DNA from: a virus
Lineage: Duplodnaviria > Caudoviricetes
Reading direction: 5' to 3' (one strand)
Virus record (IMG/VR): IMGVR_UViG_3300036987_000310
Coordinates: 96,001-160,000 of that record
DNA length: 64,000 bases
The position numbers and the translations under genes were made by a program. Of the stretch, positions 7,941 to 24,550 are shown piece by piece (position 1 is the first letter of the stretch; each line of letters starts with the position of its first letter). The notes below the pieces were generated by a model, which was given only the letters and a program-made list of their open reading frames with translations, was not told the origin of the DNA and searched no databases.

Positions 7941-7986
7941 TGATGAAGCCTTTCATCAACTTCTGTGAAACTCTTTGAATGGCCGT

Positions 7987-8742: not shown

Positions 8743-8774
8743 CGGAGGGACGTTACCGCAAGTTTAATCCTCTG

Positions 8775-9014
8775 TCACACCGGGGTCCCTTGACATGCGT
8801 GGGCCACCATCCCGACCAAGGCCCCCACGGCCACAATTAGGGCCACGAGATAGAAGCCAAAATCGTCTTCCTCGCTTTCAAGACGCCCTTTAGGAGGCCC
8901 GGCACTCTGGTGCACGGGCCTTGGGTCCTCTAGATCATGTGGCTTGTTCTTGAGGTCAAACTTCGCTGGCATCATTCCCATGGTCCTTTCACGCGGCCAC
9001 GAGGACATGGACAC
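8775..9014 (-). CDS. Small protein with C-terminal hydrophobic segment
   Basis: FYLVALIVAVGALVGMVA; upstream of endolysin. Confidence 0.5.
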   Translation of the reverse strand: MSMSSWPRERTMGMMPAKFDLKNKPHDLEDPRPVHQSAGPPKGRLESEEDDFGFYLVALIVAVGALVGMVAHACQGTPV

Positions 9015-9080
9015 GTTTTGCAGATAGTGATTACCATGGACATGAAAACTTTCAACTTGTCGACTGGCAATGGGCTTGGT

Positions 9081-12407: not shown

Positions 12408-12656
12408 TCAGATGTCCTCCCTTGGTAGGACAGCCAAGGTGACGTAGACGTCCGGGTGTTCGGTCGTGTCCTCGGGAGCATCAGACACCCGGACATGCCT
12501 GTTGTCGATCACCCAACAGCCCTTGATGCTCGGCAGAACAACACGGTCCCCAGGGTGCAAGGCGAGAGCCACTTGTGCATTCATCTCCGTTCTGCCGATA
12601 GTATCTCCATCCAGAAGAGCCCTTCGCAATTCAACACTCGCACGCATTGGCTTCAT
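12408..12656 (-). CDS. Hypothetical protein
   Basis: ATGA overlap with the deaminase gene. Confidence 0.5.
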   Translation of the reverse strand: MKPMRASVELRRALLDGDTIGRTEMNAQVALALHPGDRVVLPSIKGCWVIDNRHVRVSDAPEDTTEHPDVYVTLAVLPREDI

Positions 12657-13138
12657 GTCGACCCATTGTTTCGCATGTTGGTTTCGACCACTTCCTTGAC
12701 ACTGAAGATCTCAGGGCGGGGCTCAACCCGTCTAAAGTCTATGTCGCATTTGGAAATCAAATCCGGATCGAGAGGGATGCGGTATTGCTCATCAAACACA
12801 ATGGAGCGCACGCCAGAATTTATGAGCATCTTGAAACAGTTATAGCAAGGCGACAACGTCACATATGCCGTCGCCCCGTCAATGCAGGTTCCATGCTTCG
12901 CTGCTTGAGCCACAGCGTTAACTTCTGCGTGAATAGTTCTTATACACCCTCCGTCAGGGCCGATTTCACACCCGACGTCAGTGCAATGTGGCTGTCCGCG
13001 TATGGACCCGCCATAACCGGTCGACAAGATTGCTCTGTCGCGAACTATCACACATCCAACTTGTTTTCTGTTGCAGGTTGACCGCTCAGCGACTTCACGA
13101 GCTATCGACAGGAAATACTCGTCCCAGCTTTTTCGCAT
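12653..13138 (-). CDS. dCMP deaminase (ComEB-like)
   Basis: RSTCNRKQVGCVIV, IHAEVNA and SPCYNC zinc motifs. Confidence 0.93.
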   Translation of the reverse strand: MRKSWDEYFLSIAREVAERSTCNRKQVGCVIVRDRAILSTGYGGSIRGQPHCTDVGCEIGPDGGCIRTIHAEVNAVAQAAKHGTCIDGATAYVTLSPCYNCFKMLINSGVRSIVFDEQYRIPLDPDLISKCDIDFRRVEPRPEIFSVKEVVETNMRNNGST

Positions 13139-13172: not shown

Positions 13173-13299
13173 TGGCGGGTGAAGGAATCGAACCTTCCTG
13201 GCGTGTGGGCACAAACGGCGTCTCCCTTTCGGGAGAGAGTGGAAAATGCCGGATTGTCTTCCTTTTGGTAGAAGCGGGATCCCAGATCCCTAACCCGCC
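13173..13299 (-). ncRNA. Giant tRNA-like RNA A (loop ACCAAAA, CAA-like) with ~60-nt variable-loop insert
   Basis: Acceptor GGCGGGT/ACCCGCC; D arm GGGA-TCTGGGA-TCCC; stem CTTCT/GGAAG; T arm GAAGG-TTCGATT-CCTTC. Confidence 0.7.
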
Positions 13300-13332
13300 T
13301 AATTGAAAACGCTCGAGTGTCGATGCCGGTTT

Positions 13333-13407
13333 TGGTGCACGAGGCAGGACTTGAACCTGCAACTTCCTGTTTCGTAGACAGACGCTCTACCTTTGAGCAA
13401 CTTGCGC
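13333..13407 (-). tRNA. tRNA-Arg(ACG)
   Basis: Cloverleaf, loop CT-ACG-AA, encoded CCA, two acceptor wobble/mismatch positions. Confidence 0.85.
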
Positions 13408-13434
13408 TTGTTGGAACCGATGATTGAGCGTTTT

Positions 13435-13572
13435 CGGAGCGGGACCCGGGAGTCGAACCCGGAAACTTGTGAGCAAGATTTGCGGCTTCCTTGCGAAAGC
13501 GAGGGGGCTTGCTGGTTGAGCATTGGCTCCACTGTGGAAAAGTGGTGAGGAACCGATCCTCTGTAGTCCCGC
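13435..13572 (-). ncRNA. Giant tRNA-Gly(TCC)-like RNA B with ~65-nt variable-loop insert
   Basis: GCGGGAC/GTCCCGC with U73; D arm GAGG/CCTC; CCACT-TTTCCAC-AGTGG; T arm CCGGG-TTCGACT-CCCGG. Confidence 0.8.
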
Positions 13573-13607
13573 GAAAGTTTGGACGTTCGAGTGGCGACGC
13601 TGATTTT

Positions 13608-13683
13608 TGGCTTGCAAAGCGGGACTTGAACCCACTACACCCAGCTTTTAAGGCTGATGCTCTACCCAATGAGCTATTTGCTT
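13608..13683 (-). tRNA. Atypical tRNA with TAA anticodon, short variable loop and frayed acceptor (A1-A72, A2-A71)
   Basis: TCAGC-CTTAAAA-GCTGG; T arm GTGGG-TTCAAGT-CCCGC; GCCA end. Confidence 0.6.
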
Positions 13684-13707
13684 GTTAGAGCCGCTGTTTG
13701 AACGTCC

Positions 13708-13844
13708 TGGTGCAGGGCGAAGGAGTCGAACCTTCTTAGCTTGTGAGCACTTCGAATGCTCCTGGTGAGGGAGCGAGTGGAAACGCTGGAGACTTTTGTC
13801 GTCGTGTCCAAATCACGATGGGTGACCGTCACCCTGTGCCCTGC
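13708..13844 (-). ncRNA. Giant tRNA-Gln(TTG)-like RNA C with ~65-nt variable-loop insert
   Basis: GCAGGGC/GCCCTGC-ACCA; D arm GGGTG/CACCC; TCGTG-ATTTGGA-CACGA; T arm GAAGG-TTCGACT-CCTTC. Confidence 0.8.
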
Positions 13845-13850
13845 ATATTA

Positions 13851-14014
13851 ACCGCGTCCGAGTGGCAAATCTGTTTTACGCTTTTGACGATTTTCCTGTC
13901 GTTGCCTTTACCAGTTTGGCTACTCCCCCTAGTTTTTCCGTGGTGGGGGAGGCGGGAATCGAACCCGCATTGTGCTTTCGCACTTGCTTGTTAGATCAAC
14001 CGTATGGACGCGAT
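13851..14014 (-). ncRNA. Circularly permuted tRNA-like RNA D (YrlA/Y-RNA-like topology)
   Basis: Order on minus strand: V arm, T arm, CTCCCCC-ACCA, linker, GGGGGAG, D arm; termini ATCGCGTCC/GGACGCGGT pair. Confidence 0.7.
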
Positions 14015-14143
14015 TGGCGCCGGACCTTGGATTCGAACCAAGTTGCTTGTGAGCAGGACTTGAAGCTCCCTTGCGGGGGCGAGTTGGCCAGCTGGGCTTA
14101 GATCAGCTTAAGAGGCTGGTGGGGACCATCCCCAGTGTCCGGC
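14015..14143 (-). ncRNA. Giant tRNA-Lys(CTT)-like RNA E with ~60-nt variable-loop insert
   Basis: GCCGGAC/GTCCGGC-GCCA; D arm GGGG/CCCC; CAGC-CTCTTAA-GCTG; T arm CTTGG-TTCGAAT-CCAAG. Confidence 0.8.
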
Positions 14144-14144
14144 A

Positions 14145-14221
14145 TGGTAACGGGGGCAGGATTTGAACCTGCGACCTTGAGGTTATGGGCCTCACGAGCT
14201 ACCAGACTGCTCTACCCCGCA
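14145..14221 (-). tRNA. Initiator tRNA-fMet(CAT)
   Basis: 1:72 mismatch, GCGGGG..AGTCTGGTAGCTCG body, CAT anticodon, ACCA. Confidence 0.9.
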
Positions 14222-14254
14222 TCGATGACGACATGAACTTTCAAAGAACGAGAA

Positions 14255-14390
14255 TGGGGGAGGGCGAAGGAGTCGAACCTTCTATGCTTGTTAGAATCGC
14301 TTGATGCTTTCGCACGGAAAGCGAGGGGCGAATCTGGAACGCAGTTGCGTCGGATTTACCGTCCGATTGGGCGCCGTGCCCAAGCCCTCC
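14255..14390 (-). ncRNA. Giant tRNA-Tyr(GTA)-like RNA F with ~65-nt variable-loop insert
   Basis: GGAGGGC/GCCCTCC-CCCA; D arm GGGC/GCCC; TCGGA-CGGTAAA-TCCGA; T arm GAAGG-TTCGACT-CCTTC. Confidence 0.8.
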
Positions 14391-14408
14391 AAAACAAAAC
14401 GCTCGAGG

Positions 14409-14469
14409 TGAGATGCTTGGATTGACCCGCGCGCTTGGCGGGTCGAGCCTTCCAGCTTGTCAGCATCTC
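14409..14469 (-). ncRNA. Small structured element G carrying the cluster motif (GCTGACAAG)
   Basis: Outer stem GAGATGCT/AGCATCTC, inner stem GACCCGC/GCGGGTC. Confidence 0.45.
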
Positions 14470-14484
14470 TGGATGAACGCTCAC

Positions 14485-14736
14485 TCATATTTTACATTTG
14501 AGACCACTGTCTGTCAATATCTGGCAAACATCTTCAACAAATCGACTACACGGCGTCAAAGCCACGGGCCCTGACACGATTTCAACGCTGCCGTCCGAGT
14601 GAACGGTCACATCCTCTAGATAACCTGGCAGTTTTTCCCACTTTTCACATCGAAGAGCGTCTCTCAAGCTGTCAGAACACTCCCAATCGCGTATTTGACT
14701 GTTGAGTGCCAAAATGACGAAAAGCACAACTTTCAT
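14485..14736 (-). CDS. Hypothetical protein
   Basis: ATGA-coupled in the E1 operon. Confidence 0.55.
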   Translation of the reverse strand: MKVVLFVILALNSQIRDWECSDSLRDALRCEKWEKLPGYLEDVTVHSDGSVEIVSGPVALTPCSRFVEDVCQILTDSGLKCKI

Positions 14737-14984
14737 GAGTCTTGAACGTCCGAAATGTCAAGCAAAATTTTGGCGTTGTCCCTGAAATACTCTATGTCAG
14801 CCATCCTGGCTTCCAGCTCCCTCAACTGCCCCTCAATGGTGTCCACTTTTGCTCTCAGGACTTCAACCTCAGTGGTGTCAAATTTCGCCTCCATGGTTTC
14901 AAGAACTGGCGCAACAGATCTTTTAAACAATTTTATGGAACTGCGCGCTTGTTTGGAAGATGTTCGCTTCAACCGTTTCATCAC
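14733..14984 (-). CDS. Hypothetical coiled-coil protein, ends DVQDS
   Basis: ATGA-coupled in the E1 operon. Confidence 0.55.
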   Translation of the reverse strand: MMKRLKRTSSKQARSSIKLFKRSVAPVLETMEAKFDTTEVEVLRAKVDTIEGQLRELEARMADIEYFRDNAKILLDISDVQDS

Positions 14985-15553
14985 ACCCTCATGGCACCAG
15001 TGGGCGTGATTTGGAACCCGTGTTTTTCCCCGGAGTTTAGGAATTTTTGGGCTGCCGTGGCTATGTACGAAGCCACGGTTGCTATGAACGGAAGAAAGTC
15101 ACCATTCTCGCATGTTGCCCCTCCGGCTCCGTCTTCATCATCGATGACGAAATTTTCGCTCCAAATGACTCGCCCAAATTGTCCCCCGGCCGCCAACGTT
15201 CCGTGCAAACATGGAACGTTGGACTTGGAGAAGTTTTGAACGATTCTTCTGGCCTCTCCGTTGTCCAAACAGTCGATGATCAAGTCAGCGCCAGCCAACA
15301 GCTGGTCGTCGTTTTCCGACGACAGCTTGTGCGGAATGGACCCGATTTTGATTGCAAACAGAAACTGCATGAGCTGTTGAAGCGCAACAGTCTTGTTCTT
15401 CCCCACGGCATTTTGCGCATGGAACTGGGATGCTACGTTCTTGCGCTCGATTCTGTCGAAATCGATGACGTTGATTGTCGCTTCGCAGTTTCGGAGAAAA
15501 AGGGCCACGTGAGACCCGAGCGCTCCTACTCCGACGATTGTCACCTTCTTCAT
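14981..15553 (-). CDS. ThiF/E1-like adenylyltransferase
   Basis: VTIVGVGALGS, DFDRIERKNVASQ, KNK, LIIDCLDNGEARR, and candidate catalytic Cys in GATCE. Confidence 0.88.
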   Translation of the reverse strand: MKKVTIVGVGALGSHVALFLRNCEATINVIDFDRIERKNVASQFHAQNAVGKNKTVALQQLMQFLFAIKIGSIPHKLSSENDDQLLAGADLIIDCLDNGEARRIVQNFSKSNVPCLHGTLAAGGQFGRVIWSENFVIDDEDGAGGATCENGDFLPFIATVASYIATAAQKFLNSGEKHGFQITPTGAMRV

Positions 15554-15561
15554 GTCATCCG

Positions 15562-15906
15562 TTACTTTTCGAGTTTGTCCATTTCCGCAGCATTCAAGAA
15601 GTCTTCGACGTCAGAAACCCCGTATTTGTCCTGCAAGACCGAGAGAATCCCAGCGTGCCGCATCTTTGCCTGTTCGAGCCGATCGTTTGCCGTGTCTTTT
15701 GTGATGAGCCCTGATGCCAAAGCATTGAATATGATAGACTTTTCGACCGTTTCATGCGCCTCAAGCTGTTGAAGAACAGCCTGTTCCGGCGTCAGGCTTG
15801 TGTCGGACTCGAACTTCATGCTCAAGAACTCGGATTGTTTTTCTCCGTTTCTGTTGACTTCCATGATTTTTGAAATTGAGAAGCTTTTAACAACTAGGGC
15901 CATCAC
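15562..15906 (-). CDS. Hypothetical protein
   Basis: GGAG RBS, operon context. Confidence 0.6.
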   Translation of the reverse strand: MMALVVKSFSISKIMEVNRNGEKQSEFLSMKFESDTSLTPEQAVLQQLEAHETVEKSIIFNALASGLITKDTANDRLEQAKMRHAGILSVLQDKYGVSDVEDFLNAAEMDKLEK

Positions 15907-16030
15907 TCCTCCTGAATTCCATGCCGCCCGTTTCTTCCCGTCTCAGAAAAACGTTCTCTAGAATTACATCTAGAATGTAGCGTGGTAGATCGTCAGTTAG
16001 TGGAGTTTGCAACTATCAAGCTTTGACCAG

Positions 16031-16246
16031 TTATTCTCCATGAACGGACTCCACGATTCTTGCAGTGGCTTCAGCAGCTTGGCCGTCGCTCCACCAGCCG
16101 TGACCATCAAAGTGCATGCCGCAATGATCGCGCTTCATCACGCACTTTCCACAGCCTTCCCACGGACCACAAACCTCACACCGTTCTTTTATTGGCAAAC
16201 ATGGAGTCGGGTCTGACGGGCGGTTTATCAAGTCCATCGTGGACAT
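16031..16246 (-). CDS. Cys-rich hypothetical protein, ends ESVHGE
   Basis: CxxC pairs; tag-like C-terminus. Confidence 0.55.
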   Translation of the reverse strand: MSTMDLINRPSDPTPCLPIKERCEVCGPWEGCGKCVMKRDHCGMHFDGHGWWSDGQAAEATARIVESVHGE

Positions 16247-16255
16247 GCGACATGA

Positions 16256-16531
16256 TCACAAAATGCCGAATGGTGTCTTGGGGCGGCACTGTATGAGAGC
16301 CCAAGGACGCGTTTCATTGGGCTCAAACCTGTCCACTACGAAGTCTGTGAAATCCGCGCCCGGATCGGCAGAGATTCCCGGGACAGTTCCTGTTCGAACA
16401 GCTTCAGTAACCCATCGTTTGATGTCGACGTCCGCCGCATCCCGATTCACCGTGTCAGACAAGTCTCCATTCTGACCATTCCAAGTAACATTTACGCGTG
16501 CTTCTCCGATTTGAACGATTTCGTCTGCCAT
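16256..16531 (-). CDS. Putative ubiquitin-like (beta-grasp) protein with C-terminal PKTPFG-IL
   Basis: 91 aa, beta-grasp-like pattern, Gly before a 2-residue tail, sits between JAB and E1 genes. Confidence 0.65.
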   Translation of the reverse strand: MADEIVQIGEARVNVTWNGQNGDLSDTVNRDAADVDIKRWVTEAVRTGTVPGISADPGADFTDFVVDRFEPNETRPWALIQCRPKTPFGIL

Positions 16532-16545
16532 TTGCGTCTCCTAAT

Positions 16546-16881
16546 TCAGGTTCTTTTGTTCTTGAACATCACCACTACTTCTTGAGCAAATCTTTCAGAG
16601 CTGAAGTCCGACAGCACTTCGCTCAATGCACGAAGAAATGCGACAATGTTGCGTTTTTCTTCCAAATCTCGTCTGGCGCGCTCTACTTTTTCAGCCCTGG
16701 TGTCGTTCAGGGTTCGGTAGTCGAAGAAAACTTCTTTGGCGAAGTGTTCGTGCCTAAGAATCTCATTTTCGGTATCCTTGACGGAGTTTTGAAAATGATC
16801 TAGCGCTGCGTTGACTATCCACTGAAAATGATGGTCTTGAAGTTTTGCCGCGATGCTTTTCAGATTTCCGAACTTATCCAT
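16546..16881 (-). CDS. Hypothetical protein
   Basis: Between JAB and Ubl. Confidence 0.6.
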   Translation of the reverse strand: MDKFGNLKSIAAKLQDHHFQWIVNAALDHFQNSVKDTENEILRHEHFAKEVFFDYRTLNDTRAEKVERARRDLEEKRNIVAFLRALSEVLSDFSSERFAQEVVVMFKNKRT

Positions 16882-16889
16882 GCAACAGT

Positions 16890-17282
16890 TTACACGCGGG
16901 GCGGCCGAATTTCCGACAGCTCTCGAAGCTTATTGACCCAGTCAAACCCGAGGTTTGTCTTTTCTGCCGCCCCTTTATAGTCAAGCTTTTCCGGACCAGT
17001 CCACACTATGGTTGCCGCCATGTCGCTGGTGAAAATCCACCACACCAGTCTCTTCCCTAAAGCCGCTTCGATCGCGGCGAACGTGGTCAAATCAGTGTGA
17101 GACGGTTGTGGGACTCCAGAGCCCGGGTGGGTGTGTGCGAATCCAGCGACGGCGTCGCGGTTTCCCCAGATGACGTCCCACAAGCTTCTGCTGTCTGGCA
17201 AAGCGCCAACGTTCCTGTCGTTCGGAGCATGCCAGTACATGACTTTCCCGTCGTTGTTTACGACAGCCCCCGCTTCTTTCAT
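16890..17282 (-). CDS. JAB/MPN+ metallopeptidase
   Basis: GFAHTHPGSGVPQPSHTD = HxH-x7-S-x2-D JAMM motif. Confidence 0.85.
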   Translation of the reverse strand: MKEAGAVVNNDGKVMYWHAPNDRNVGALPDSRSLWDVIWGNRDAVAGFAHTHPGSGVPQPSHTDLTTFAAIEAALGKRLVWWIFTSDMAATIVWTGPEKLDYKGAAEKTNLGFDWVNKLRELSEIRPPRV

Positions 17283-17701
17283 GACATCTCCATTCGCACT
17301 TGCATCAACAACTTCCCAAGCATGTTTTTTCCTTTGCCTGTCTTGGAGTCAACCCCCCAAAATTTGTCCCCCCATGAGTTTCCTTCAACAAGCTCGACGT
17401 CGCCTGTGTCAAGAAGCTGCTGACGAAGACCAGGGTCTGAGAATTTTTCTCGCAAAAGATCCAACATGACTCTGATTTTTACGTTCTCCCAATCTTTCCT
17501 GAGAGTCGCTCCTCGTCCGAGTTTTTTAGCTTCGCCTGCCGTTTTAGCCATCCTGATCTTTGACCGTTCGACAGGGCTGAGCGTTTTTGCTGCTTGGTAT
17601 GCATGCTCCACAGTTCGAAATGAGACGCCATCGTAAAAAACTCGACTGTCGTAAAAATTTGACAAAAACGCATGCTCGTTGAAAAACTTGTCGATTTTCA
17701 T
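17279..17701 (-). CDS. NADAR (YbiA/DUF1768) family protein
   Basis: FLSNFY, TVEHAYQAAK, KF..L..LL.TG..ELVE, DKFWG, GKNMLGKLLM. Confidence 0.92.
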   Translation of the reverse strand: MKIDKFFNEHAFLSNFYDSRVFYDGVSFRTVEHAYQAAKTLSPVERSKIRMAKTAGEAKKLGRGATLRKDWENVKIRVMLDLLREKFSDPGLRQQLLDTGDVELVEGNSWGDKFWGVDSKTGKGKNMLGKLLMQVRMEMS

Positions 17702-17889
17702 TGGCTCATGACTTCCATGACTGGATGACGACTAATGCACACCCAACAAACGCGTTGCCCATCAATATTTCCGCTCTGGACTCTTCCAGAGTGCATATGA
17801 CTTTTCGGAAGCCACCACATGCGAATCTTCTTACACCTAGGGCATCTTTTGTGCCTCGGACGCTTTCTGTTCTTCGCTCGCTTCTTCAT
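17698..17889 (-). CDS. Zn-finger-like hypothetical protein, ends MEVMSQ
   Basis: CPRC..CWVC. Confidence 0.55.
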   Translation of the reverse strand: MKKRAKNRKRPRHKRCPRCKKIRMWWLPKSHMHSGRVQSGNIDGQRVCWVCISRHPVMEVMSQ

Positions 17890-17895
17890 CTGCGC

Positions 17896-18168
17896 TTACT
17901 TATCTTCTGGTTCATTCATGGGCACATATGGCTCGTATCCTTCTCGCCTGTTGTGCTCCTGCATGGCTTCCACCCAAGAGCCTGCCTCAAATTCATATAG
18001 CAGTTCTGACTCCGGACTCATGAAGCCCTGTTCAATCATCTTTTTAGCGTTTTCCTCGGTCGTGAGCTGGACGCCGCCTTCCTCCCCGTCCAAAGCATAG
18101 ATAAAGTTGTGGCAGACGAACTTGACTAGCCCTTTGGCGTTGTGCGGCCAGTATGGGACGTCGGACAT
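17896..18168 (-). CDS. Hypothetical protein
   Basis: Co-oriented ORF. Confidence 0.55.
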   Translation of the reverse strand: MSDVPYWPHNAKGLVKFVCHNFIYALDGEEGGVQLTTEENAKKMIEQGFMSPESELLYEFEAGSWVEAMQEHNRREGYEPYVPMNEPEDK

Positions 18169-18234
18169 TGCTTTAGCTTTCTTTACATGTCGACATGTTC
18201 ATTTCGCCGACGCTACAAACATCGTTAAGTTGGT

Positions 18235-18540
18235 TCATGACGACTGCACCTCGTCGACTACAATTAGATTCATGGCGTCTTTAACCGACACCTCGACAAG
18301 AGCTTTCCAGATTGTTGCATTAATCACCACGCGTGTTTTATGCTCTTCGCACCGAAACACGGTTAGCGTGCCTCCGGGGCGAAGAAAAGCACGCGTTGCT
18401 GGTTTTCCGCACTTAACGCCAGCGCGCGATCCGCTTTTTTTGTGCGGAAAATGGCCACAAACCGGCAATTTCACCGCCCTATGACTTTTACGACCTGTCA
18501 CTCGACTTCCTCGAATGCTCCTAAAGCGTTCCTTTTCCAT
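18235..18540 (-). CDS. Hypothetical protein (true start probably downstream), ends DEVQSS
   Basis: CG..C..C.EH zinc motif. Confidence 0.45.
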   Translation of the reverse strand: MEKERFRSIRGSRVTGRKSHRAVKLPVCGHFPHKKSGSRAGVKCGKPATRAFLRPGGTLTVFRCEEHKTRVVINATIWKALVEVSVKDAMNLIVVDEVQSS

Positions 18541-18725
18541 TCGCGGCCTAAATCTTTAGATACGATTCTCACTATATCTTTGTGGTCGTGTTCTATATCC
18601 GAAAGCCAAACATCAACCTGGTATTCGGAATCGACGCGAACGCTTCCGGCGTGGGTGGGGCCGCCCGGCCCGTGCTTTTCGCCTGGCCCGGCCGGGGTGT
18701 CGTCATGGAGCTCAAGTTCGATCAT
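18498..18725 (-). CDS. Hypothetical protein
   Basis: Co-oriented ORF. Confidence 0.5.
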   Translation of the reverse strand: MIELELHDDTPAGPGEKHGPGGPTHAGSVRVDSEYQVDVWLSDIEHDHKDIVRIVSKDLGREWKRNALGAFEEVE

Positions 18726-18918
18726 TGGATTTCGCTTTCAACCAACTTTCAGCTTCGTCGCCGATTCCTTGTTTTCTCGCCCATTCTTTTAAACTTTGAT
18801 CGGTTCCAGACTTCTTCCAACGTCGAACCATGCTGCGCCGCGCCTTTTTCCCGATGCCCTTATACCCTTCATTCATTGCGCCCTCACACGGGTGGTTGCC
18901 AGCAAAAGTGCTGGCCGA

Positions 18919-19167
18919 TCATGACCTCGAAGAGTGTGGACCGTGAACTGCGGAGTTCACGACTTCACCTCCGCTGCTGAATGGCGTCGAGTTATACCTG
19001 ACAACGCCGTTTGCATCTGAGAATTTGTGAACGGTGAACGAGCTCGTGTTTTCCAGAGCTTCTTTCACCTTGTCCACTGTGGACCCGATTTCGCCGGATA
19101 TCTCTTCAAGAGTCCCAGCGCCGTGGAAACAAAAATGTTTGCGCAGTTTAATTTCCAAGTCTTTCAT
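18919..19167 (-). CDS. Hypothetical protein (possible winged HTH)
   Basis: TLEEISGEIGSTVDKVKEAL. Confidence 0.45.
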   Translation of the reverse strand: MKDLEIKLRKHFCFHGAGTLEEISGEIGSTVDKVKEALENTSSFTVHKFSDANGVVRYNSTPFSSGGEVVNSAVHGPHSSRS

Positions 19168-19168
19168 T

Positions 19169-19471
19169 TCAACAGTCCTTTGGAAGCCTGTTTAAAATCT
19201 CATCCAGAGAGCGGTTTAGCTCTTGGACCCTGTCTTCCAAGGTCTCGTTCAAAAGATGTTGCTCAATCGCCCCAGCCACAGCTGGCTTTTCACATATTTT
19301 TTCAAATCTTTCAAAGTCTGCAATAATGTTTTTGAAAAGATTTGAAACTGCAGTGTTTCGGGCTTTCCCTTGCAACTTTTTCAGACCTTCAAATTCGGAT
19401 CGATACTGACTAGAATTTTTCCAAGTTATGCTTTCGTTGACGTCTTTAATCCACATGGCGATACACCACAA
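19169..19471 (-). CDS. Hypothetical protein
   Basis: Co-oriented ORF. Confidence 0.5.
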   Translation of the reverse strand: MWCIAMWIKDVNESITWKNSSQYRSEFEGLKKLQGKARNTAVSNLFKNIIADFERFEKICEKPAVAGAIEQHLLNETLEDRVQELNRSLDEILNRLPKDC

Positions 19472-20387
19472 GCTTTCCGAGCTTCTCAGCTTCTCGAATC
19501 ACAGCCGGCAAAGACTCTAGCGTGAAGTACGTGTCCCCTCGCTCGTTAGTGTCATGATCTGTTAAGCAAATGCCGGCATCGACTATTTGCAAAGTCATGG
19601 CATCGCAGGTGCACTCAAATCGACGCCGATCCAAGCGAAACTTCACTACCATTTCAGCTCGGTGAATCGCCCGCCTATGATCAAGGTATATAGCACCACC
19701 AACGGCCAGAGCGGCTCTTGCCGCCTCTCCGAAATCGTGCTGGGCCATTTGGCGCCTTCCAACCCCATCCCCGAGTTTTTCGATGAGCTGCAATCGGCGT
19801 TCTTCCAAACGTCGACGCTCTTCTTCTTCCAAACGCCTACGCTCTGCCTCAACCCGCCTACGCTCTGCCTCAACCCGCTGCCACGTTTCCATTCGAAACG
19901 CTGCGTCTAAAGCAGGAGCCACGCCCGGAACGTCATCGACTGACAACTTCTCGTCCAGGTATGCTTGGAGCACGTCGTCCTCGGGTCCGAGGGGCATCTC
20001 CTGACACTTGTACACCAGAGGCCCGCCCTCATGGGTTCGACCTGACGAAATGCGAACGAAGCGGTCAAGGCCTGGCTCTATGAGCCAGACGCGCTCCGAG
20101 TGACTAGTTATTTTGGCCGGGTCGGAATCGACTCTCGCGTCATCTGCCACAAGCCGGTCTCCAACCAGATACCCGCAAACAAGATATTTCAGAAGATCCG
20201 GAACCGGATCTGTTTGCGCAAACAGCTTAGCTTTCCTTCCAGAAATCGAAAAAATGTTCCACCCGTGCTCTTCCGGAAGCTTCCCGTCCAGGGACCAAGC
20301 TCGAGGCCCTGATCGCAGAGACCTACCTCCAATCCAAGGGAGTGTTATGGTTTCATCTCCTGACTGAAGAAGGTCGCGCCAGCCCAT
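19446..20387 (-). CDS. Conserved protein; candidate E2-like conjugating enzyme
   Basis: 313 aa; C-terminal DAGICL resembles the G.ICL catalytic segment of E2 enzymes; same strand as E1/Ubl/JAB; fold not confirmed. Confidence 0.4.
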   Translation of the reverse strand: MGWRDLLQSGDETITLPWIGGRSLRSGPRAWSLDGKLPEEHGWNIFSISGRKAKLFAQTDPVPDLLKYLVCGYLVGDRLVADDARVDSDPAKITSHSERVWLIEPGLDRFVRISSGRTHEGGPLVYKCQEMPLGPEDDVLQAYLDEKLSVDDVPGVAPALDAAFRMETWQRVEAERRRVEAERRRLEEEERRRLEERRLQLIEKLGDGVGRRQMAQHDFGEAARAALAVGGAIYLDHRRAIHRAEMVVKFRLDRRRFECTCDAMTLQIVDAGICLTDHDTNERGDTYFTLESLPAVIREAEKLGKLVVYRHVD

Positions 20388-20422
20388 GTTGTTGGTTACA
20401 TCAACAACATAGCGATTTACGG

Positions 20423-20902
20423 CTATGAGTTCATTATGTCCGGGACAAGCTTTTCTCGTTCAATTAACCCCTCGCATCTGTTTGCTGGATCGGGAAACAG
20501 CGGAGTACACCCGAGCCCTGTGTACTCATGGAAGCAAACCATGACTTTCGGCAATGCGGAGTACGTAACTTTCAAACCGTTTCCACCGTTTGCTTTTAAG
20601 TTTGGATGAGTGCACTGAGTCCCTTCGCGATTCATGCAGTTTCCGCACAAAAGCATGAATTTCCCGGGGCCGCCGCGCCCCCACGGGATTTCTCTGTACA
20701 ATCTCTCATGATCGTTTATGACTTTCTCACATGCCTTGCTTCTGCAGGTCACGAGAATCTTTTCGGGGTCGATGCTGTCATCTTCTCTGCATTCCCACCA
20801 CATAGTGAACTCGCAAATGTCATCTTTTTCAAATCCGCACAGCTGACATCGTTTAAAAACGCTTAGCGGAAGCGCGCCATCGGACAGACTTTCCATCACC
20901 AC
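20423..20902 (-). CDS. Cys-rich hypothetical protein, ends PDIMNS
   Basis: Multiple CxxC. Confidence 0.6.
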   Translation of the reverse strand: MVMESLSDGALPLSVFKRCQLCGFEKDDICEFTMWWECREDDSIDPEKILVTCRSKACEKVINDHERLYREIPWGRGGPGKFMLLCGNCMNREGTQCTHPNLKANGGNGLKVTYSALPKVMVCFHEYTGLGCTPLFPDPANRCEGLIEREKLVPDIMNS

Positions 20903-20948
20903 TCCTTTTCACATATCCGTCGAGCAATGACATTGGCGAACCTTCGGG

Positions 20949-21401
20949 TCATTTGTGGCAACAAAAACCTTTATCGTCGCCATAGTGCCCACAATGCCGC
21001 AAAGTTGTGCACACTACCCACACCTGACGAACAACCTGATACTTCTTGTTCGTCACATCGATCAAACACGGAACTTCGTCAGCCGTTAAGTTACCGCGGC
21101 AGTCCACATTCGCTCCGTAGATATGCCCTTCGTTGCCGCTGGCCATCCACAGCACTCGGTGCGCGTAATCGTAAGCATTGTCGACGCTCCAATACATGCA
21201 CACGGGATCGCCAGGAGCCCATCGGGTCATTCTATCGAGGCGCTCACCTTGACTGTTTAGACCGACTCCGCACGACATCGGGTCGACAATCGTGGACACG
21301 GCGTCCATCAGTTGGTCTTGGTTTTCTCCAAACCCGAACAAAATCAAGACGGATGCCCAAAACATCACGCTCGCCCCCGATTTTCTTCTGATTCTAACCA
21401 T
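20949..21401 (-). CDS. Hypothetical protein with N-terminal signal/TM segment
   Basis: VMFWASVLILFGFG. Confidence 0.5.
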   Translation of the reverse strand: MVRIRRKSGASVMFWASVLILFGFGENQDQLMDAVSTIVDPMSCGVGLNSQGERLDRMTRWAPGDPVCMYWSVDNAYDYAHRVLWMASGNEGHIYGANVDCRGNLTADEVPCLIDVTNKKYQVVRQVWVVCTTLRHCGHYGDDKGFCCHK

Positions 21402-22330
21402 TCTTCAGAGCTTGCCTGTCGGGAATCGTCGTCCACAGCTTTCAAAACTTCCATCGGGTCTATCTCGTCCAGCATCTTCACCCGAACTTTTTTCCTCGTC
21501 TCGTTCAAAACTTTGGTGGACGGGCAAAAGCAATCGTCGAGCTTTTTCTTAGCCGAGACAATTGCTTGAACGCTTTCCGACATTTCTGTCGTCGATTTGG
21601 CAGTCGGAACCACAGCCATTCTCACCCGCCTTGCGTCGTCTGTTAGCTTGAGATAGTCGGAGCTCACTTTTTCCATACTCCGGTTTTCTTCGGTGAGAAA
21701 ATCTCTCGTGTTTACATAAACTATCGAGAACCATGCGGCGATGATGACAATGGATGCCAAAACTCCCCAAAAGAACATGGAGCCATGGCTCCATCCGATG
21801 GACAAAAGATACAAAGCTGTTGGCAATAAGCCCAACCACGAGATTGTCATGATGCCGCCTCTGGCATACTTGTTTATCGAGCGTCGATCTTTGAGCTTGT
21901 CGCTAAGCTCTGACGCGGTTTCCGCCAGAGCTCCAGTTTCGGACTCCAACTCTCTCAGATATGCGACGTATGCCAGTTTGCGCTCTCTGTTGGGCTTTTC
22001 AGCGTTCAATTTTTCCAATGCTTCCGCCTGGCATTTTTTGCCGAGCTCTTCTTCCACCTCTTTCCTTATTTGCGGTTTTAGTTCTTTTCTTACCTCTGGG
22101 ATAACTTCTTCCTTAACAGAAGCTTTCAACCCTTCGGAAACGATTGCAAGAAACCTCTTGTCTTCCCTTAGGTTTTTTTCGATCACAGCCCTCAAACGGT
22201 TTTGTTCTACGAGGCTGCTTCTGAGCTGAACATAGTCGCTGCGAGTCAGCTTATACTTTTTAGCTTCTTCAAGTTCACGAACAGTGAGCTGCTGGATTTC
22301 GTTATTGATTTGCGATCCGTTCAGTGCCAT
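21365..22330 (-). CDS. Coiled-coil membrane protein (two TM segments)
   Basis: IMTISWLGLLPTALYLL and MFFWGVLASIVIIAAWFSIVYV. Confidence 0.7.
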   Translation of the reverse strand: MALNGSQINNEIQQLTVRELEEAKKYKLTRSDYVQLRSSLVEQNRLRAVIEKNLREDKRFLAIVSEGLKASVKEEVIPEVRKELKPQIRKEVEEELGKKCQAEALEKLNAEKPNRERKLAYVAYLRELESETGALAETASELSDKLKDRRSINKYARGGIMTISWLGLLPTALYLLSIGWSHGSMFFWGVLASIVIIAAWFSIVYVNTRDFLTEENRSMEKVSSDYLKLTDDARRVRMAVVPTAKSTTEMSESVQAIVSAKKKLDDCFCPSTKVLNETRKKVRVKMLDEIDPMEVLKAVDDDSRQASSEEWLESEENRGRA

Positions 22331-22334
22331 GGCT

Positions 22335-22676
22335 TCACAACCTGTGACCGAATGTTTTTTCCGTCATTAAATTTGTTACCAGCGCAGCATTGCAGTCTTC
22401 GGGCGTTCCAGAGTTTTCAAGGTCCCCGCGTTCCGGGGTTTTGCATACGTGGTTGCCGGTGCGACTGCAGATGGTCCACGTTTCGCTACCGCATACTGAG
22501 CACTGCCACAACTTCGTGTCGTTATGCAAAACTTTGACGAAACGCCAATCGTGTTTTGTTTTGATTTCTTCGTAAGAAATGGGAACGACGACCTCTTGAG
22601 CCTCTCCGTCCTGTTCAAAGTTCAGGAGAGCATCATATCTGTTCAAGAGGTCGTCGTGTTTGGTCATGCGGCCCAA
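22335..22676 (-). CDS. Hypothetical Zn-finger protein
   Basis: CSVC..C..HVC. Confidence 0.5.
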   Translation of the reverse strand: MGRMTKHDDLLNRYDALLNFEQDGEAQEVVVPISYEEIKTKHDWRFVKVLHNDTKLWQCSVCGSETWTICSRTGNHVCKTPERGDLENSGTPEDCNAALVTNLMTEKTFGHRL

Positions 22677-24550
22677 GTGGGTTTGCAGAGAAGATCTTGC
22701 TTCAATATGGTATCAACGAGCGTGACGCGCGGAACCGCGACAGCCCGAGCCGTCGCGCCGACTGGAGTTGCTGCGACGAGCGCACGAATCGTACGAGGAA
22801 TCGCGTACGGATCTGCGAATGTTGCTTCGTCAATCATGAAGCATGGAATCCCGAGTCGGGCCGCGGTGTCGCGAACTGCGGACCCATACCCTCCTAAGTT
22901 GACGACTCCGTACATCATGCCTCCTCCAACCTTCACAAAGCCGAAAGCCATGGGGCGAAGTTCGGACGTGTTGACGTCATTCTCAAACGACGACGCTTGT
23001 TCATCTCCAACAAAGATGAACAAGCTGTCTTCGTCGTCGCCAGGCTTGTGGGCCTTCAAGGCGCGGATCCCGGCTCCATAGTCGGTTCCGCCTCCAGCGC
23101 GAATGCCCTTGAAGGCGTTCTCCACTCCAGCTGCAGAGGGGTGGCGGATCTGAAGCTCGCGCCCCTGCGTGTTGAAAATGGACACGTGCACTTTGTCCGG
23201 CGGGAACCCCTGAAGGAATTTTGCGACGTGAGATTTGGCAGCCTCAATCGCATTTTCCATCGACCCAGAGACGTCCACCATGAAGTACACGCGCATGCCC
23301 TTCATAGTTTCTTCGACCGCCTTTTGCAGAGCCCCGTCGGCTGCTTCTTGCAGCTTTTCCTGAGTCTCCTTAGACTTGACGCGGTTGGCGATGTTGGCCG
23401 CCCGCATGTCTTCAGCGTTTTTGACAGCTTTGTTCCACCTGTCTTTGACGTCTTGGACCTCTAGCAGCCCAAGCTCCTCGAGAGTCGGCGTGTAGATGAT
23501 CAAGTCCTTGTCGGACAGAGACTTGGCTTCAATTGCTGCGGCCATGACGGCGCGCGTGACCCCGACCTCTTTCGGAAGAAGTCCGACGACCCGCTTGAAA
23601 TTCGGCTTTTCACGAACGATCTTTTCGCAGATCTGTTCTTCCGTCATTCCTTCCCAAGTTTCGGCTGCAGCCATTTCCTGACCGATTGCGAGCTGGCGCC
23701 TGCCGTCTTTTGCCTGCGCCTGCTTCCAGCGCAGAATCTCAAAGAATTTCGTCGTTTCAGGCTTATATCCGACGCAACGCGAAAGCTCCATGACAGTGGA
23801 TCGGAAGCCTGCTTTCACGAGGCCTTCGAGAAGCTTCGTGTTCTGCTCTCGATGTCTCAGCCACTTCTCCACGGCCTTGTCCCATCGGCCGTAAAATGGC
23901 CGACGAGCTGACCTCCCAAATCCAAGCTCGCGATTGACAGCCGCCACCCCTGGAAGGGAAAGCAGATCGTGGACGCGCAAGAGAAGCTTCGGATTGAAGT
24001 CCTTTCCGTCCTTGCGAGAAAGAAGAAGCATGGCCTCGCCAACGTCACGATAGTCTTCATCGTAAAATGCGACTTTTCCGCCGTCGACAACCGAGTCCCC
24101 CTTGCGGGACTGGCACAGCATGAACGCAGCCAGAACAACTTTCAAGTCGCGATGCTCCTGACCGAAAGCATACGACGCCCACCGAGCTGCGAATTCGTTG
24201 TCGAGCTTCCAGACTTCGGCGACTTGCGTGTACATCCAAACTGCCACTTCCGGAAACAGGCCGGCCGGCCTATACTCCCCAACGATGTTCGCGCCTTCTT
24301 TCACTTTCCCATCATCTTGAAGAACGCCTAGACGAGTGCGCACAGACTTCTTTCCCTGCTTGGAAAGCTTGTACACAATTTTTTGCTTCGGATCGCCTTC
24401 TTCTTTGTGGGTGACAGGTTCCCATCTGACGCCGACGTTGAAACGGTTATCGGCGACTACGATGCCAGGGCGGTTGTGGACCGCGTGGTCCGTGTAGCCG
24501 AGAAGCGTTTGAATAATTCTCTCTGCCGGTCCTAGATTTTCTTTGTCCAT
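22664..24550 (-). CDS. TROVE/Ro60-like helical domain plus vWA (MIDAS) domain protein
   Basis: C-terminal YFMVDVSGSM, GGGTD, IFVGDE MIDAS; helical N-region with GFRSTVMELSRCVGYKP resembling the Ro60 GW.H.DLLRL.H.KP segment. Confidence 0.65.
   Translation of the reverse strand: MDKENLGPAERIIQTLLGYTDHAVHNRPGIVVADNRFNVGVRWEPVTHKEEGDPKQKIVYKLSKQGKKSVRTRLGVLQDDGKVKEGANIVGEYRPAGLFPEVAVWMYTQVAEVWKLDNEFAARWASYAFGQEHRDLKVVLAAFMLCQSRKGDSVVDGGKVAFYDEDYRDVGEAMLLLSRKDGKDFNPKLLLRVHDLLSLPGVAAVNRELGFGRSARRPFYGRWDKAVEKWLRHREQNTKLLEGLVKAGFRSTVMELSRCVGYKPETTKFFEILRWKQAQAKDGRRQLAIGQEMAAAETWEGMTEEQICEKIVREKPNFKRVVGLLPKEVGVTRAVMAAAIEAKSLSDKDLIIYTPTLEELGLLEVQDVKDRWNKAVKNAEDMRAANIANRVKSKETQEKLQEAADGALQKAVEETMKGMRVYFMVDVSGSMENAIEAAKSHVAKFLQGFPPDKVHVSIFNTQGRELQIRHPSAAGVENAFKGIRAGGGTDYGAGIRALKAHKPGDDEDSLFIFVGDEQASSFENDVNTSELRPMAFGFVKVGGGMMYGVVNLGGYGSAVRDTAARLGIPCFMIDEATFADPYAIPRTIRALVAATPVGATARAVAVPRVTLVDTILKQDLLCKPTWAA

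What the first reader, a model, noticed from the sequence alone, without database searches (positions are those of the whole stretch)
14981..20387. Phage-encoded ubiquitin-like conjugation set: E1/ThiF, Ubl with cleavable tail, JAB protease and candidate E2
On one strand lie a ThiF/E1 (14981-15553), a 91-aa Ubl-like protein ending PKTPFG-IL (16256-16531), a JAMM-motif JAB peptidase (16890-17282) and a 313-aa protein with an E2-like G.ICL segment (19446-20387). No ThiS pathway, thiazole synthase, MoaE or cysteine synthase partners are visible, which argues against a simple sulfur relay. Established: in bacterial Bil/Bub systems JAB trims the Ubl to expose a C-terminal Gly, and E1/E2 conjugate it to targets, in Bil for anti-phage defence. 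Inference: this phage carries its own conjugation pathway, perhaps to tag host proteins, counter host Ubl defence, or modify its own proteins. It lies directly upstream of the tRNA-like RNA cluster.
Basis: partly seen in the sequence, partly recalled or inferred. Interest (0 to 1): 0.8.

Follow-up and report, generated by a model that had tools for sequence, protein, structure and literature searches.

The report
Phage ubiquitin-like tagging cassette
A 377-kb phage carries a real, widely conserved gene set for a small ubiquitin-like protein, its activating enzyme and its trimming protease, always joined to a metal-binding vWA protein and a new cysteine protein next to tRNA-like RNAs, a combination I found in no paper.

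Summary
All four ORFs are at the stated coordinates on the minus strand. The E1 is a minimal MoeB/ThiF-type adenylase with an invariant crossover-loop Cys. The JAB has a complete, invariant JAMM motif. The 91-aa protein folds as a beta-grasp, and its relatives all end in RPKTPFG followed by 0 to 73 unconserved residues. In 12 bacterial loci that lack JAB, the Ubl stops exactly at that Gly, which supports JAB trimming.

The 313-aa "E2" is a constant cassette member with an invariant Cys in G-I-C-L. No E2 profile matches it, and its fold match to UEV/RWD domains is weak, so E2 is unproven. Its N-terminal half looks like tandem OB folds.

This order and strand hold in 66 of 66 phage loci and in Myxococcota chromosomes, beside tRNA or tRNA-like RNA genes. 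The phage genome has no ThiS, MoaE, PP-loop or rhodanese hit.

Most likely this is a Ubl activation and conjugation module serving a vWA (possibly Ro60-like) RNA-protein particle. It is not a free-standing Bil-like defence or counter-defence set. The scan has found this cassette before on other DNA (at least 9 genomes). I found no published description.

The parts
22664..24550 (-). 628-aa protein, the first gene of the cassette. It has a roughly 410-aa helical N-terminal region of no known family and a C-terminal vWA domain with an intact MIDAS site (D426-x-S428-x-S430, T489, D516). It is possibly Ro60-like.
   Evidence: Pfam VWA_2 1.8e-8. MIDAS residues are invariant in 45 relatives. Present in 65/66 phage loci directly upstream of the 313-aa gene. 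A PDB profile search hits only vWA domains. No TROVE HMM hit even at E<=10. By language-model features, 59 of the 100 nearest Atlas clusters are TROVE/vWA_Ro60, which is a lead only.
19446..20387 (-). 313-aa protein (p313). Residues 12-130 form an all-beta tandem OB-like N-domain, 158-206 a charged long helix, and 219-303 an alpha-beta4-loop-alpha C-domain with an invariant C274 in G-I-C-L and an FTLESLP motif. It is a candidate E2-like carrier or an RNA-binding adaptor.
18712..18876 (-). 54-aa basic small ORF that recurs inside the cassette in some relatives (optional sixth gene).
   Evidence: tblastn hits in 5 phage loci and 2 bacterial loci. In the two bacterial loci it lies between p313 or JAB and the Ubl gene. 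No family hit.
16890..17282 (-). 130-aa minimal JAB/JAMM metallopeptidase. It is predicted to remove the residues after Gly89 of the Ubl, and perhaps to reverse conjugation.
   Evidence: Prok-JAB 22 bits. E3, H50, H52, S61 and D64 are invariant. It is the only JAB in the genome. Its absence goes with tail-less Ubl genes.
16256..16531 (-). 91-aa ubiquitin-like protein precursor. It has a beta-grasp core and the invariant motif R83-P-K-T-P-F-G89, followed by the two-residue tail I90-L91.
14981..15553 (-). 190-aa minimal E1 (MoeB/ThiF-type adenylase) with an invariant crossover-loop Cys148. It has no Zn-binding CxxC pairs, no rhodanese domain and no ubiquitin-fold domain.
   Evidence: Pfam ThiF 1e-24. 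Family profile against E. coli MoeB 1.1e-15; C148 aligns with the MoeB loop Cys. Invariant residues. It is the only ThiF in the genome.
13173..14481 (-). Array of tRNAs and tRNA-like RNAs immediately downstream of the E1 gene, probably the RNA partners of the cassette.
   Evidence: ARAGORN finds three tRNAs at 13333-14221. Earlier notes of this scan describe the tRNA-like members. In relatives the cassette is flanked by tRNA arrays. In bacterial loci partial tRNA-model hits abut the vWA gene where ARAGORN finds no tRNA.

Best explanation
The four genes belong to a conserved cassette: vWA protein, 313-aa Cys protein (p313), JAB, Ubl, minimal E1, with adjacent tRNA-like RNAs. It is shared by huge phages and Myxococcota chromosomes. 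In this window, unrelated small ORFs stretch it to 9.6 kb.

Proposed mechanism:
1. The JAB metallopeptidase cuts the 91-aa precursor after Gly89 and removes Ile-Leu. This is inferred from comparative data.
2. The minimal E1 adenylates the freed Gly carboxylate and probably holds the Ubl as a thioester on Cys148. This is inferred from conserved residues and the alignment to MoeB.
3. The Ubl is then attached to a target, either directly as in E2-independent systems (SAMP, TtuB, Urm1) or through the invariant Cys274 of p313. This step is open.
4. The target is a component or client of the particle formed by the vWA (possibly Ro60-like) protein, the OB-fold-bearing p313 and the tRNA-like RNAs. This is inferred from strict gene linkage only.
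5. JAB may also remove the Ubl again.

The module would thus regulate or arm an RNA-handling particle. It is not a general host-tagging system.
For: - Gene linkage: p313-anchored loci contain JAB in 66/66, Ubl in 66/66, vWA in 65/66 and E1 in 63/66, always in the same order and strand. Ubl-anchored loci contain p313 and JAB in 46/46. In the most compact loci the five genes are contiguous, 4.1 kb from vWA start to E1 end.
- Bacterial versions: the cassette occurs in 29 contigs, mostly from Myxococcota MAGs. One sits among sigma-factor, kinase and EF-Tu genes on a 544-kb contig.
- Ubl: the model is a beta-grasp. RPKTPFG is invariant and followed by tails of 0 residues (18 proteins), 1-5 (75), 6-19 (8) or 20 or more (11).
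- JAB and tail: all 12 JAB-less loci have a Ubl ending exactly at the Gly, whereas 54 of 65 JAB-bearing loci have a tail (Fisher p 3.7e-8, not corrected for relatedness).
- E1: GxGxxG, D31, N39, Q43, K54, D94/D97, R102 and C148 are invariant. C148 aligns with the MoeB loop Cys.
- JAB: the full JAMM motif is invariant.
- No sulfur acceptors or relay enzymes in the complete phage genome.
- RNA context: tRNA arrays or partial tRNA-like hits flank the cassette in phages and bacteria. The p313 N-domain resembles OB/S1/CSD folds.
Against: - No conjugate, thioester or cleavage has been observed. Every step is inferred.
- On the p313 tree JAB was lost only 4-5 independent times, so the JAB-tail link does not reach significance once relatedness is considered.
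- The E1 lacks the N-terminal segment and both CxxC pairs of MoeB. At the position aligned with the Arg of MoeB's NLQRQ motif it has Ser. As I recall, that Arg binds ATP phosphate.
- The Ubl ends in Phe-Gly, not Gly-Gly.
- The N-terminal region of the vWA protein matches no TROVE profile, so the 'Ro60-like particle' rests on language-model features, domain order and RNA neighbours.
- p313 matches no E2 profile.
Confidence: 0.6

Rival explanations
1. Sulfur carrier. E1 adenylates the Ubl, which becomes a C-terminal thiocarboxylate. This donates sulfur for thiolation of tRNAs or of the neighbouring tRNA-like RNAs, as with TtuB/TtuC or Urm1/Uba4. JAB serves only to expose the Gly.
For: The E1 is closest to MoeB, Uba4, ThiF and TcdA among solved structures. 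The loop Cys aligned with C148 is, as I recall, the one used in the ThiF and Uba4 chemistry. The cassette sits in tRNA arrays beside tRNA-like RNAs. Known E2-less Ubl systems serve both as sulfur carriers and as protein tags (PMC7527816, PMC9574740).
Against: The complete phage genome has no PP-loop thiolase (ATP_bind_3) and no rhodanese, ThiS-family or MoaE hit. None was seen among the annotated neighbours of the one bacterial cassette examined. The E1 has no rhodanese domain. The fixed partners are instead a vWA protein and p313, which have no precedent in sulfur relays. Host enzymes could still supply the missing steps.
Confidence: 0.15
2. p313 is a true E2 that takes the Ubl from E1 as a thioester on Cys274 and tags host or phage proteins, as in Bil/Bub, for defence or counter-defence. 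This would be independent of any RNA particle.
Confidence: 0.17
3. Non-covalent subunit. The beta-grasp protein is a structural or RNA-binding subunit of the vWA particle, for example a ligand of the MIDAS site as UBL domains are for the Mdn1 MIDAS. E1 and JAB would act on something else.
For: [quoted passage not shown] The LeuRS C-terminal domain (as I recall, a tRNA-binding domain) and the U1-snRNA-binding SF3A1 UBL recur among the matches. The vWA MIDAS is intact, and E43 of the Ubl is invariant.
Against: This does not explain the invariant C-terminal RPKTPFG, the disposable tails, the JAB-tail pattern or the strict linkage to an E1 with an invariant Cys. All the structural matches are weak.
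Confidence: 0.05

Closest known systems
E2-independent prokaryotic Ubl systems: archaeal SAMP1-3/UbaA/HvJAMM1 and Thermus TtuB/TtuC with a JAMM peptidase (PMC4443979, PMC2948915); eukaryotic Urm1/Uba4 (PMC7527816, PMC9574740)
   Same: A small beta-grasp protein activated at a C-terminal Gly by a MoeB-like E1 with a conserved loop Cys. A JAMM peptidase is present, there is no recognisable E2 or E3, and there is a functional tie to tRNA.
   Different: The Ubl ends in Phe-Gly, usually with a tail, not Gly-Gly. The E1 is cut down to 190 aa, with no Zn site and no rhodanese domain. There is no NcsA/TtuA thiolase. The obligatory partners are a vWA protein and p313. NCBIfam UbaA scores 45.8 bits against a cut-off of 450.
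Bacterial Ubl-conjugation operons: Bil (BilABCD), Bub, and type II CBASS Cap2/Cap3 (PMC10097602; bioRxiv 10.1101/2023.09.26.559546; PMC11601596)
   Same: An operon of Ubl, E1 and a JAB peptidase. The peptidase is thought to expose the C-terminal Gly. The E1 Rossmann core matches Cap2 and BubCD.
   Different: No protein matching any E2 model, no E1-E2 fusion, and no cGAS-like or effector genes. The constant partners are a vWA protein and tRNA-like RNAs. The cassette is found in phages as well as in cells.
Ro60 (Rsr)-Y RNA particles, including YrlA-type tRNA-like Y RNAs and the rsr-yrlBA-rtcBA operon (PMC4201824 as cited in earlier notes; jumbo-phage TROVE proteins in PMC7824862)
   Same: A protein with a large helical region followed by a vWA/MIDAS domain, encoded next to tRNA-like RNAs. 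By language-model features, TROVE clusters dominate its neighbours.
   Different: No TROVE or vWA_Ro60 HMM match, even at E<=10. A profile comparison with a canonical TROVE protein from a myxobacterial genome that also has the cassette aligns only the vWA part, at 0.4% probability. I found no report of Ubl machinery with Ro60.
vWA-MoxR-FtsH ternary conflict systems with a Ubl-conjugation set (Kaur et al. 2020, PMC7159879)
   Same: A vWA protein encoded together with JAB, E1 and Ubl in bacteria with a multicellular habit.
   Different: Those systems have a MoxR AAA+ ATPase, FtsH, a RING-type E3, a Ubl-E2 fusion, EAD1 adaptors and caspase-like effectors. None of these was seen among the cassette genes.
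MoeB/MoaD and ThiF/ThiS sulfur relays
   Same: The best sequence match of the E1 is MoeB, 1.1e-15 over residues 3-173. The partner is a beta-grasp protein ending in Gly.
   Different: The genome has no MoaE, ThiG, ThiS-family or rhodanese partner. JAB, vWA and p313 are foreign to those pathways.

Membership tests
ThiF/MoeB/E1 adenylase superfamily (14981-15553) | Match to the ThiF family profile above its curated threshold | tested here: met
   Pfam PF00899, 87.4 bits against a cut-off of 28.1. Family profile against MoeB 1.1e-15.
ThiF/MoeB/E1 adenylase superfamily (14981-15553) | Nucleotide-binding GxGxxG and the Mg-binding Asp of the DxxDN motif | tested here: met
   G8, G10, G13, D94 and D97 are invariant in 46-56 relatives. 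N98 is kept in at least 90%.
ThiF/MoeB/E1 adenylase superfamily (14981-15553) | Full set of ATP-phosphate ligands as in MoeB (Asn, Arg and Gln of NLQRQ; N-terminal Arg) | tested here: inconclusive
   The alignment gives K-N-V-x-S-Q. Asn and Gln are kept and Arg is replaced by Ser. The MoeB N-terminal 30 residues have no counterpart. The roles of these residues are from memory.
ThiF/MoeB/E1 adenylase superfamily (14981-15553) | Cys in the crossover loop (thioester or acyl-disulfide site) | tested here: met
   C148 is invariant and aligns with the Cys of MoeB 'ALTC'.
Canonical eukaryote-type or Bil/Bub E1 | A domain that recruits an E2 (ubiquitin-fold domain or fused E2) | tested here: not met
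   The protein is 190 aa and ends with the adenylation core. PADLOC Cap2 models match only their E1 part.
Ubiquitin-like beta-grasp modifier (16256-16531) | Beta-grasp fold | tested here: inconclusive
Ubiquitin-like beta-grasp modifier (16256-16531) | Conserved C-terminal Gly that is terminal or followed by a removable extension | tested here: met
   G89 is invariant. Tails of 0-73 residues show no conservation, and 9 of the 11 long tails (20 or more residues) are Cys-rich add-ons.
Ubiquitin-like beta-grasp modifier (16256-16531) | Gly-Gly terminus | tested here: not met
   The terminus is Phe-Gly in all relatives.
Ubiquitin-like beta-grasp modifier (16256-16531) | Covalent attachment to targets | not testable with these tools
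   Needs biochemistry or proteomics.
JAB/JAMM (MPN+) metallopeptidase (16890-17282) | E ... HxH ... S..D metal and catalytic motif | tested here: met
   E3, H50, H52, S61 and D64 are invariant.
JAB/JAMM (MPN+) metallopeptidase (16890-17282) | Profile match above the curated threshold | tested here: not met
   Prok-JAB 22.0 bits against 25. PDB profile search gives Rpn11 only at E 0.8. NCBIfam desampylase E 0.044.
E2 / UBC superfold (19446-20387, residues 205-313) | Sequence-profile match to any E2 family | tested here: not met
   No E2 family found by Pfam on 57 members, PADLOC, NCBIfam or a PDB profile search. No UQ_con hit in the genome, although the controls for that search were silent too.
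E2 / UBC superfold (19446-20387, residues 205-313) | UBC fold: helix, four-stranded sheet, Cys loop, helix | tested here: inconclusive
E2 / UBC superfold (19446-20387, residues 205-313) | Catalytic Cys with an upstream HPN-type motif | tested here: inconclusive
   C274 is invariant in G-I-C-L. There is no HPN; an Asp-Ala-Gly precedes the Cys.
Ro60 / TROVE protein (22664-24550) | TROVE domain | tested here: not met
   No PF05731 hit at E<=10. A PDB profile search finds only vWA domains. hhalign against a canonical TROVE protein aligns only the vWA part. The only support is language-model features.
Ro60 / TROVE protein (22664-24550) | C-terminal vWA domain with a MIDAS site | tested here: met
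   VWA_2 1.8e-8. DxSxS, T and D are invariant.
Ro60 / TROVE protein (22664-24550) | Adjacent Y-RNA or tRNA-like partner RNA | tested here: inconclusive
   tRNA arrays flank the cassette, and partial tRNA-model hits (positions 5-66) abut the vWA gene in bacterial loci where ARAGORN finds none. Binding was not tested.
Bil / Bub / type II CBASS | Recognisable E2 (or E1-E2 fusion) plus a sensor or effector such as a CD-NTase | tested here: not met
   No E2 model matches. The annotated neighbours of the one bacterial locus examined are housekeeping-type genes, with no sensor or effector gene.

The most novel reading that the evidence does not exclude
The E1 may activate the Ubl's C-terminal Gly exactly as an aminoacyl-tRNA synthetase activates an amino acid. 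The Ubl would then be joined not to a lysine but to the neighbouring tRNA-like RNA, at its 3' end or a ribose hydroxyl. That would make a covalent protein-RNA conjugate held by the vWA protein and the OB-fold protein p313. It would be a ubiquitin-like 'charging' of a tRNA mimic.
Probability: 0.06. Interest if true: 0.95.

Novelty: new variant of a known kind. Interest (0 to 1): 0.72.

Why it matters
Prokaryotic ubiquitin-like systems are known from sulfur relays, archaeal sampylation and, recently, anti-phage defence (Bil, Bub, CBASS). This cassette is a separate Ubl family with a cut-down E1 and a minimal JAB. It is tied gene-for-gene to a vWA (possibly Ro60-like) protein, an OB-fold Cys protein and tRNA-like RNAs, in both huge phages and Myxococcota. 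If the link is functional, it would connect protein tagging with RNA surveillance or tRNA handling, a connection I found in no paper. It would also give a compact four- or five-gene system that can be reconstituted in vitro. The pattern of tail-less Ubl wherever JAB is absent gives a clean, testable prediction about Ubl maturation.

Tried and rejected
- Complex prediction of E1 + Ubl(1-89) + p313 residues 205-313, with p313 as partner, returned 'no answer' (score 0.00). It is not evidence either way.
- Sequencing-run search listed no RNA holder. DNA holders are groundwater, coal and soil metagenomes. Nothing can be said on expression.
- The p313 C-domain profile against 1.84 billion representatives found 432 clusters at E<=0.001. 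Nearly all of the 150 best listed have the same roughly 310-aa architecture, and no link to a named E2 family emerged. One 2168-aa Ig-repeat surface protein (P0381) matched 13 times, but weakly per repeat, and looks compositional.
- Foldseek of p313 against PDB and AFDB clusters gave no named fold. The Atlas search by sequence features gave nothing, and the Atlas's own model of p313 is poor.
- phmmer of the single E1 sequence against PDB at E<=1e-8 found nothing. The family profile was needed.
- Tail-assembly reading (lambda K-type JAB with a tail Ubl): the JAB touches a 'tail protein' PHROG at E 0.0011. I rejected it because no tail gene was seen among the neighbours of the one annotated bacterial locus.
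- RiPP or microcin C-type reading (MccB-like E1): rejected because the substrate is a folded, conserved 91-aa protein, and MccB matches only the Rossmann N-terminal part.
- NADAR (17279-17701) as a cassette member: rejected, since it is present in only 1 of 66 related loci.
- Literature searches on Ro60/TROVE/Y RNA with JAB/ThiF/ubiquitin-like found no description. Nidhogg Asgard viruses are reported to encode both Ro60 and ThiF proteins, but the paper does not link the two.

Full report
**Observation.** The window is part of a complete 376,674-bp phage genome with terminal repeats and holds 37 tRNA genes.
- 14981-15553 is a ThiF-family protein (Pfam 87.4 bits, E 1e-24).
- 16890-17282 scores just under the Prok-JAB threshold (22 bits against 25). 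It carries E3, H50, H52, S61 and D64, the whole JAMM motif, and all five are invariant in its relatives.
- 16256-16531 and 19446-20387 hit no family in Pfam or PADLOC. PHROGs and NCBIfam gave p313 only low-complexity matches on its charged helix.

**The real unit.** I ran tblastn with every ORF of the region against relatives. Only five genes are conserved, always in one order and on one strand: the 628-aa vWA protein (22664-24550), the 313-aa protein (p313), JAB, the 91-aa protein and E1.
- This holds in 11 of 12 loci found through E1.
- Among 66 loci found through p313, JAB is present in 66, Ubl in 66, vWA in 65 and E1 in 63.
- Among 46 loci found through the 91-aa protein, p313 and JAB are present in all 46.
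- In the most compact loci the five genes are contiguous, 4.1 kb from vWA start to E1 end. In this window unrelated small ORFs, among them a NADAR gene, stretch the span to 9.6 kb.
- The cassette also occurs in 29 contigs of bacterial MAGs, mostly Myxococcota with GC 0.56-0.74. On a 544-kb Polyangiaceae contig it lies among sigma-factor, kinase and EF-Tu genes.
- Some of these 'bacterial' contigs are probably phages, because they branch among phage sequences and carry many tRNAs.
- Of 50,697 GenBank phage records only one, the metagenomic Virus Rctr197k, has the cassette. There it is annotated as hypothetical.

**The Ubl.**
- The 91-aa protein has 113 relatives at E<=0.01, 53-85% identical to it.
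- All but one carry the motif RPKTPFG near the C-terminus. G89, R83 and F88 are invariant.
- After the Gly come 0 residues (18 proteins), 1-5 (75), 6-19 (8) or 20 or more (11). The first residue after the Gly is not conserved. Nine of the eleven long tails are Cys-rich, several with CxxC...CxxC spacing.
- With the alignment, AlphaFold2 gives a confident model (pLDDT 87) with beta-beta-alpha-beta-beta order and a free C-terminal tail.
- I read it as a divergent beta-grasp modifier. The fold call alone is weak, and the C-terminal pattern is the strong evidence.

**JAB trimming.**
- Twelve bacterial loci lack JAB, and p313 is followed directly by the Ubl gene. In all twelve the Ubl ends exactly at the Gly.
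- Among 65 non-identical JAB-bearing loci, 54 have a tail. Fisher p is 3.7e-8.
- On a p313 tree JAB absence needs only 4-5 changes. In independent pairs the tail always goes the same way or does not differ, but the sign test cannot reach significance.
- The direction is clear and the statistics are limited by relatedness.

**The E1.**
- The family profile matches E. coli MoeB best (1.1e-15), then Uba4, TcdA, ThiF, Uba5, SUMO E1, Cap2 and BubCD.
- Invariant residues include GxGxxG, D31, N39, Q43, K54, D94, D97, R102 and C148.
- In the alignment C148 falls on the Cys of MoeB 'ALTC'. From memory this is the loop Cys used by ThiF and Uba4.
- The two CxxC pairs and the N-terminal 30 residues of MoeB are absent. 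The Arg of NLQRQ is replaced by Ser.
- It is therefore a minimal, probably active, adenylase with a likely thioester or acyl-carrier Cys. It has no rhodanese domain and no E2-recruiting domain.
- It is the only ThiF in the genome.

**The candidate E2.**
- p313 has more than 1180 relatives in the word-indexed search. Its C-domain alone finds 432 clusters at 50% identity, and nearly all of the 150 listed have the same architecture.
- The AF2 model (pLDDT 84) has an all-beta N-domain (12-130), a long charged helix (158-206) and a C-domain (219-303) of helix, four strands, a loop and a helix. C274 is invariant in G-I-C-L, followed by the invariant FTLESLP.
- No E2 profile matches any of 57 members.
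An RNA-binding adaptor is at least as likely.

**The vWA protein and the RNA context.**
- The 628-aa protein has a vWA domain with an invariant MIDAS site.
- Its N-terminal 410 residues match no TROVE profile. They do not align with a canonical TROVE protein from a myxobacterial genome that also has the cassette.
- Language-model features place TROVE/vWA_Ro60 clusters among its neighbours, 59 of 100. Earlier reports of this scan call it Ro60-like. I treat that as a lead.
- In phages the cassette is embedded in tRNA arrays. In bacterial loci, partial tRNA-model matches (positions 5-66, or 137-145-nt 'tRNAs') lie just upstream of the vWA gene where ARAGORN finds none.
- In this window the tRNA and tRNA-like array starts about 500 bp downstream of E1.

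**Sulfur relay.** The complete genome has no hit for ThiS, MoaE, PP-loop ATPases or rhodanese, and ThiG gives only a sub-threshold fragment. This argues against a self-contained sulfur pathway, but host enzymes cannot be excluded.

**Mechanism and comparison.** My best reading (0.6) has these steps:
1. JAB exposes Gly89.
2. The minimal E1 adenylates it and carries it on C148.
3. The Ubl is transferred, directly or through C274 of p313, to a component or client of the particle made of the vWA protein, p313 and the tRNA-like RNAs.

It works most like the E2-independent SAMP/UbaA/HvJAMM1, TtuB/TtuC and Urm1/Uba4 systems. It shares the operon logic of Bil/Bub/Cap2-Cap3 but fails their E2 and effector criteria. 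A vWA-plus-Ubl precedent exists in the vWA-MoxR-FtsH systems (PMC7159879), but those have quite different components. Full-text searches found no description of this cassette.

**Earlier work of this scan.** The same cassette was reported from at least nine other genomes, with similar conclusions. One of those reports is marked 'part of it fell', without saying which part, so I kept the Ro60 and E2 claims at the level my own tests allow.

Noticed in passing
window 17279-17701 (-): A NADAR-domain gene (Pfam 1.6e-28) overlaps the JAB start codon by 4 nt, which suggests translational coupling here. It is present in only 1 of 66 related cassettes, so it is a local insertion.
   Followed up: partly
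window 14485-22676 (-): About 17 small ORFs without relatives in the related loci are interspersed among the five cassette genes. They stretch the cassette to 9.6 kb, against 4.1 kb in compact relatives. One of them (20423-20902) is Cys-rich. What inserts them is unknown.
   Followed up: partly
proteins P0008, P0059, P0073, P0110, P0113 (relatives of 16256-16531): Some Ubl relatives carry 32-55-residue Cys-rich, zinc-ribbon-like extensions after the conserved Gly. This recalls eukaryotic ubiquitin made as fusions with zinc-ribbon ribosomal proteins. Some may be gene-calling read-through.
   Followed up: partly
L109 6771-7940: In a Polyangiaceae chromosome an EF-Tu gene lies directly upstream of the cassette on the same strand, and three tRNA-Ser genes plus a partial tRNA-like hit lie directly downstream of its E1 (L087 11912-12579).
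   Followed up: no
L098 7253-7858; L102 7777-7983; L100 7552-7688; L108 7947-8085: Rfam's tRNA model gives partial (positions 5-66) or over-long (137-145 nt) matches just upstream of the vWA gene in myxobacterial loci where ARAGORN calls no tRNA. These are candidate tRNA-like partner RNAs.
   Followed up: partly
L112 (KX853510.1 Virus Rctr197k) 7001-9863: In the only GenBank phage record with the cassette, the p313 gene is not annotated (a plus-strand ORF is called over it). The vWA gene is entered as a misc_feature, so it may be disrupted or mis-called.
   Followed up: no
L159 826-2430 (-), L160 883-2451 (-): Two myxobacterial MAGs that carry the cassette also encode a separate, canonical TROVE-domain protein elsewhere. 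The cassette's vWA protein is therefore not simply their Ro60 orthologue.
   Followed up: partly
protein P0381: A 2168-aa bacterial surface protein with 13 or more Ig-like repeats, each with two Cys, matches the p313 C-domain profile in every repeat. This is probably a compositional or beta-hairpin resemblance around the C...G-x-C-V-I-D motif.
   Followed up: partly
window 12653-13138 (-): A dCMP deaminase-like gene lies just beyond the RNA array. Relatives of it sit near the E1 gene in 2 of the first 12 loci (L011, L012).
   Followed up: no
L032 17517-17877: A related huge phage carries a tmRNA gene (tag ANDNSIADRLVA) about 5 kb downstream of its cassette.
   Followed up: no
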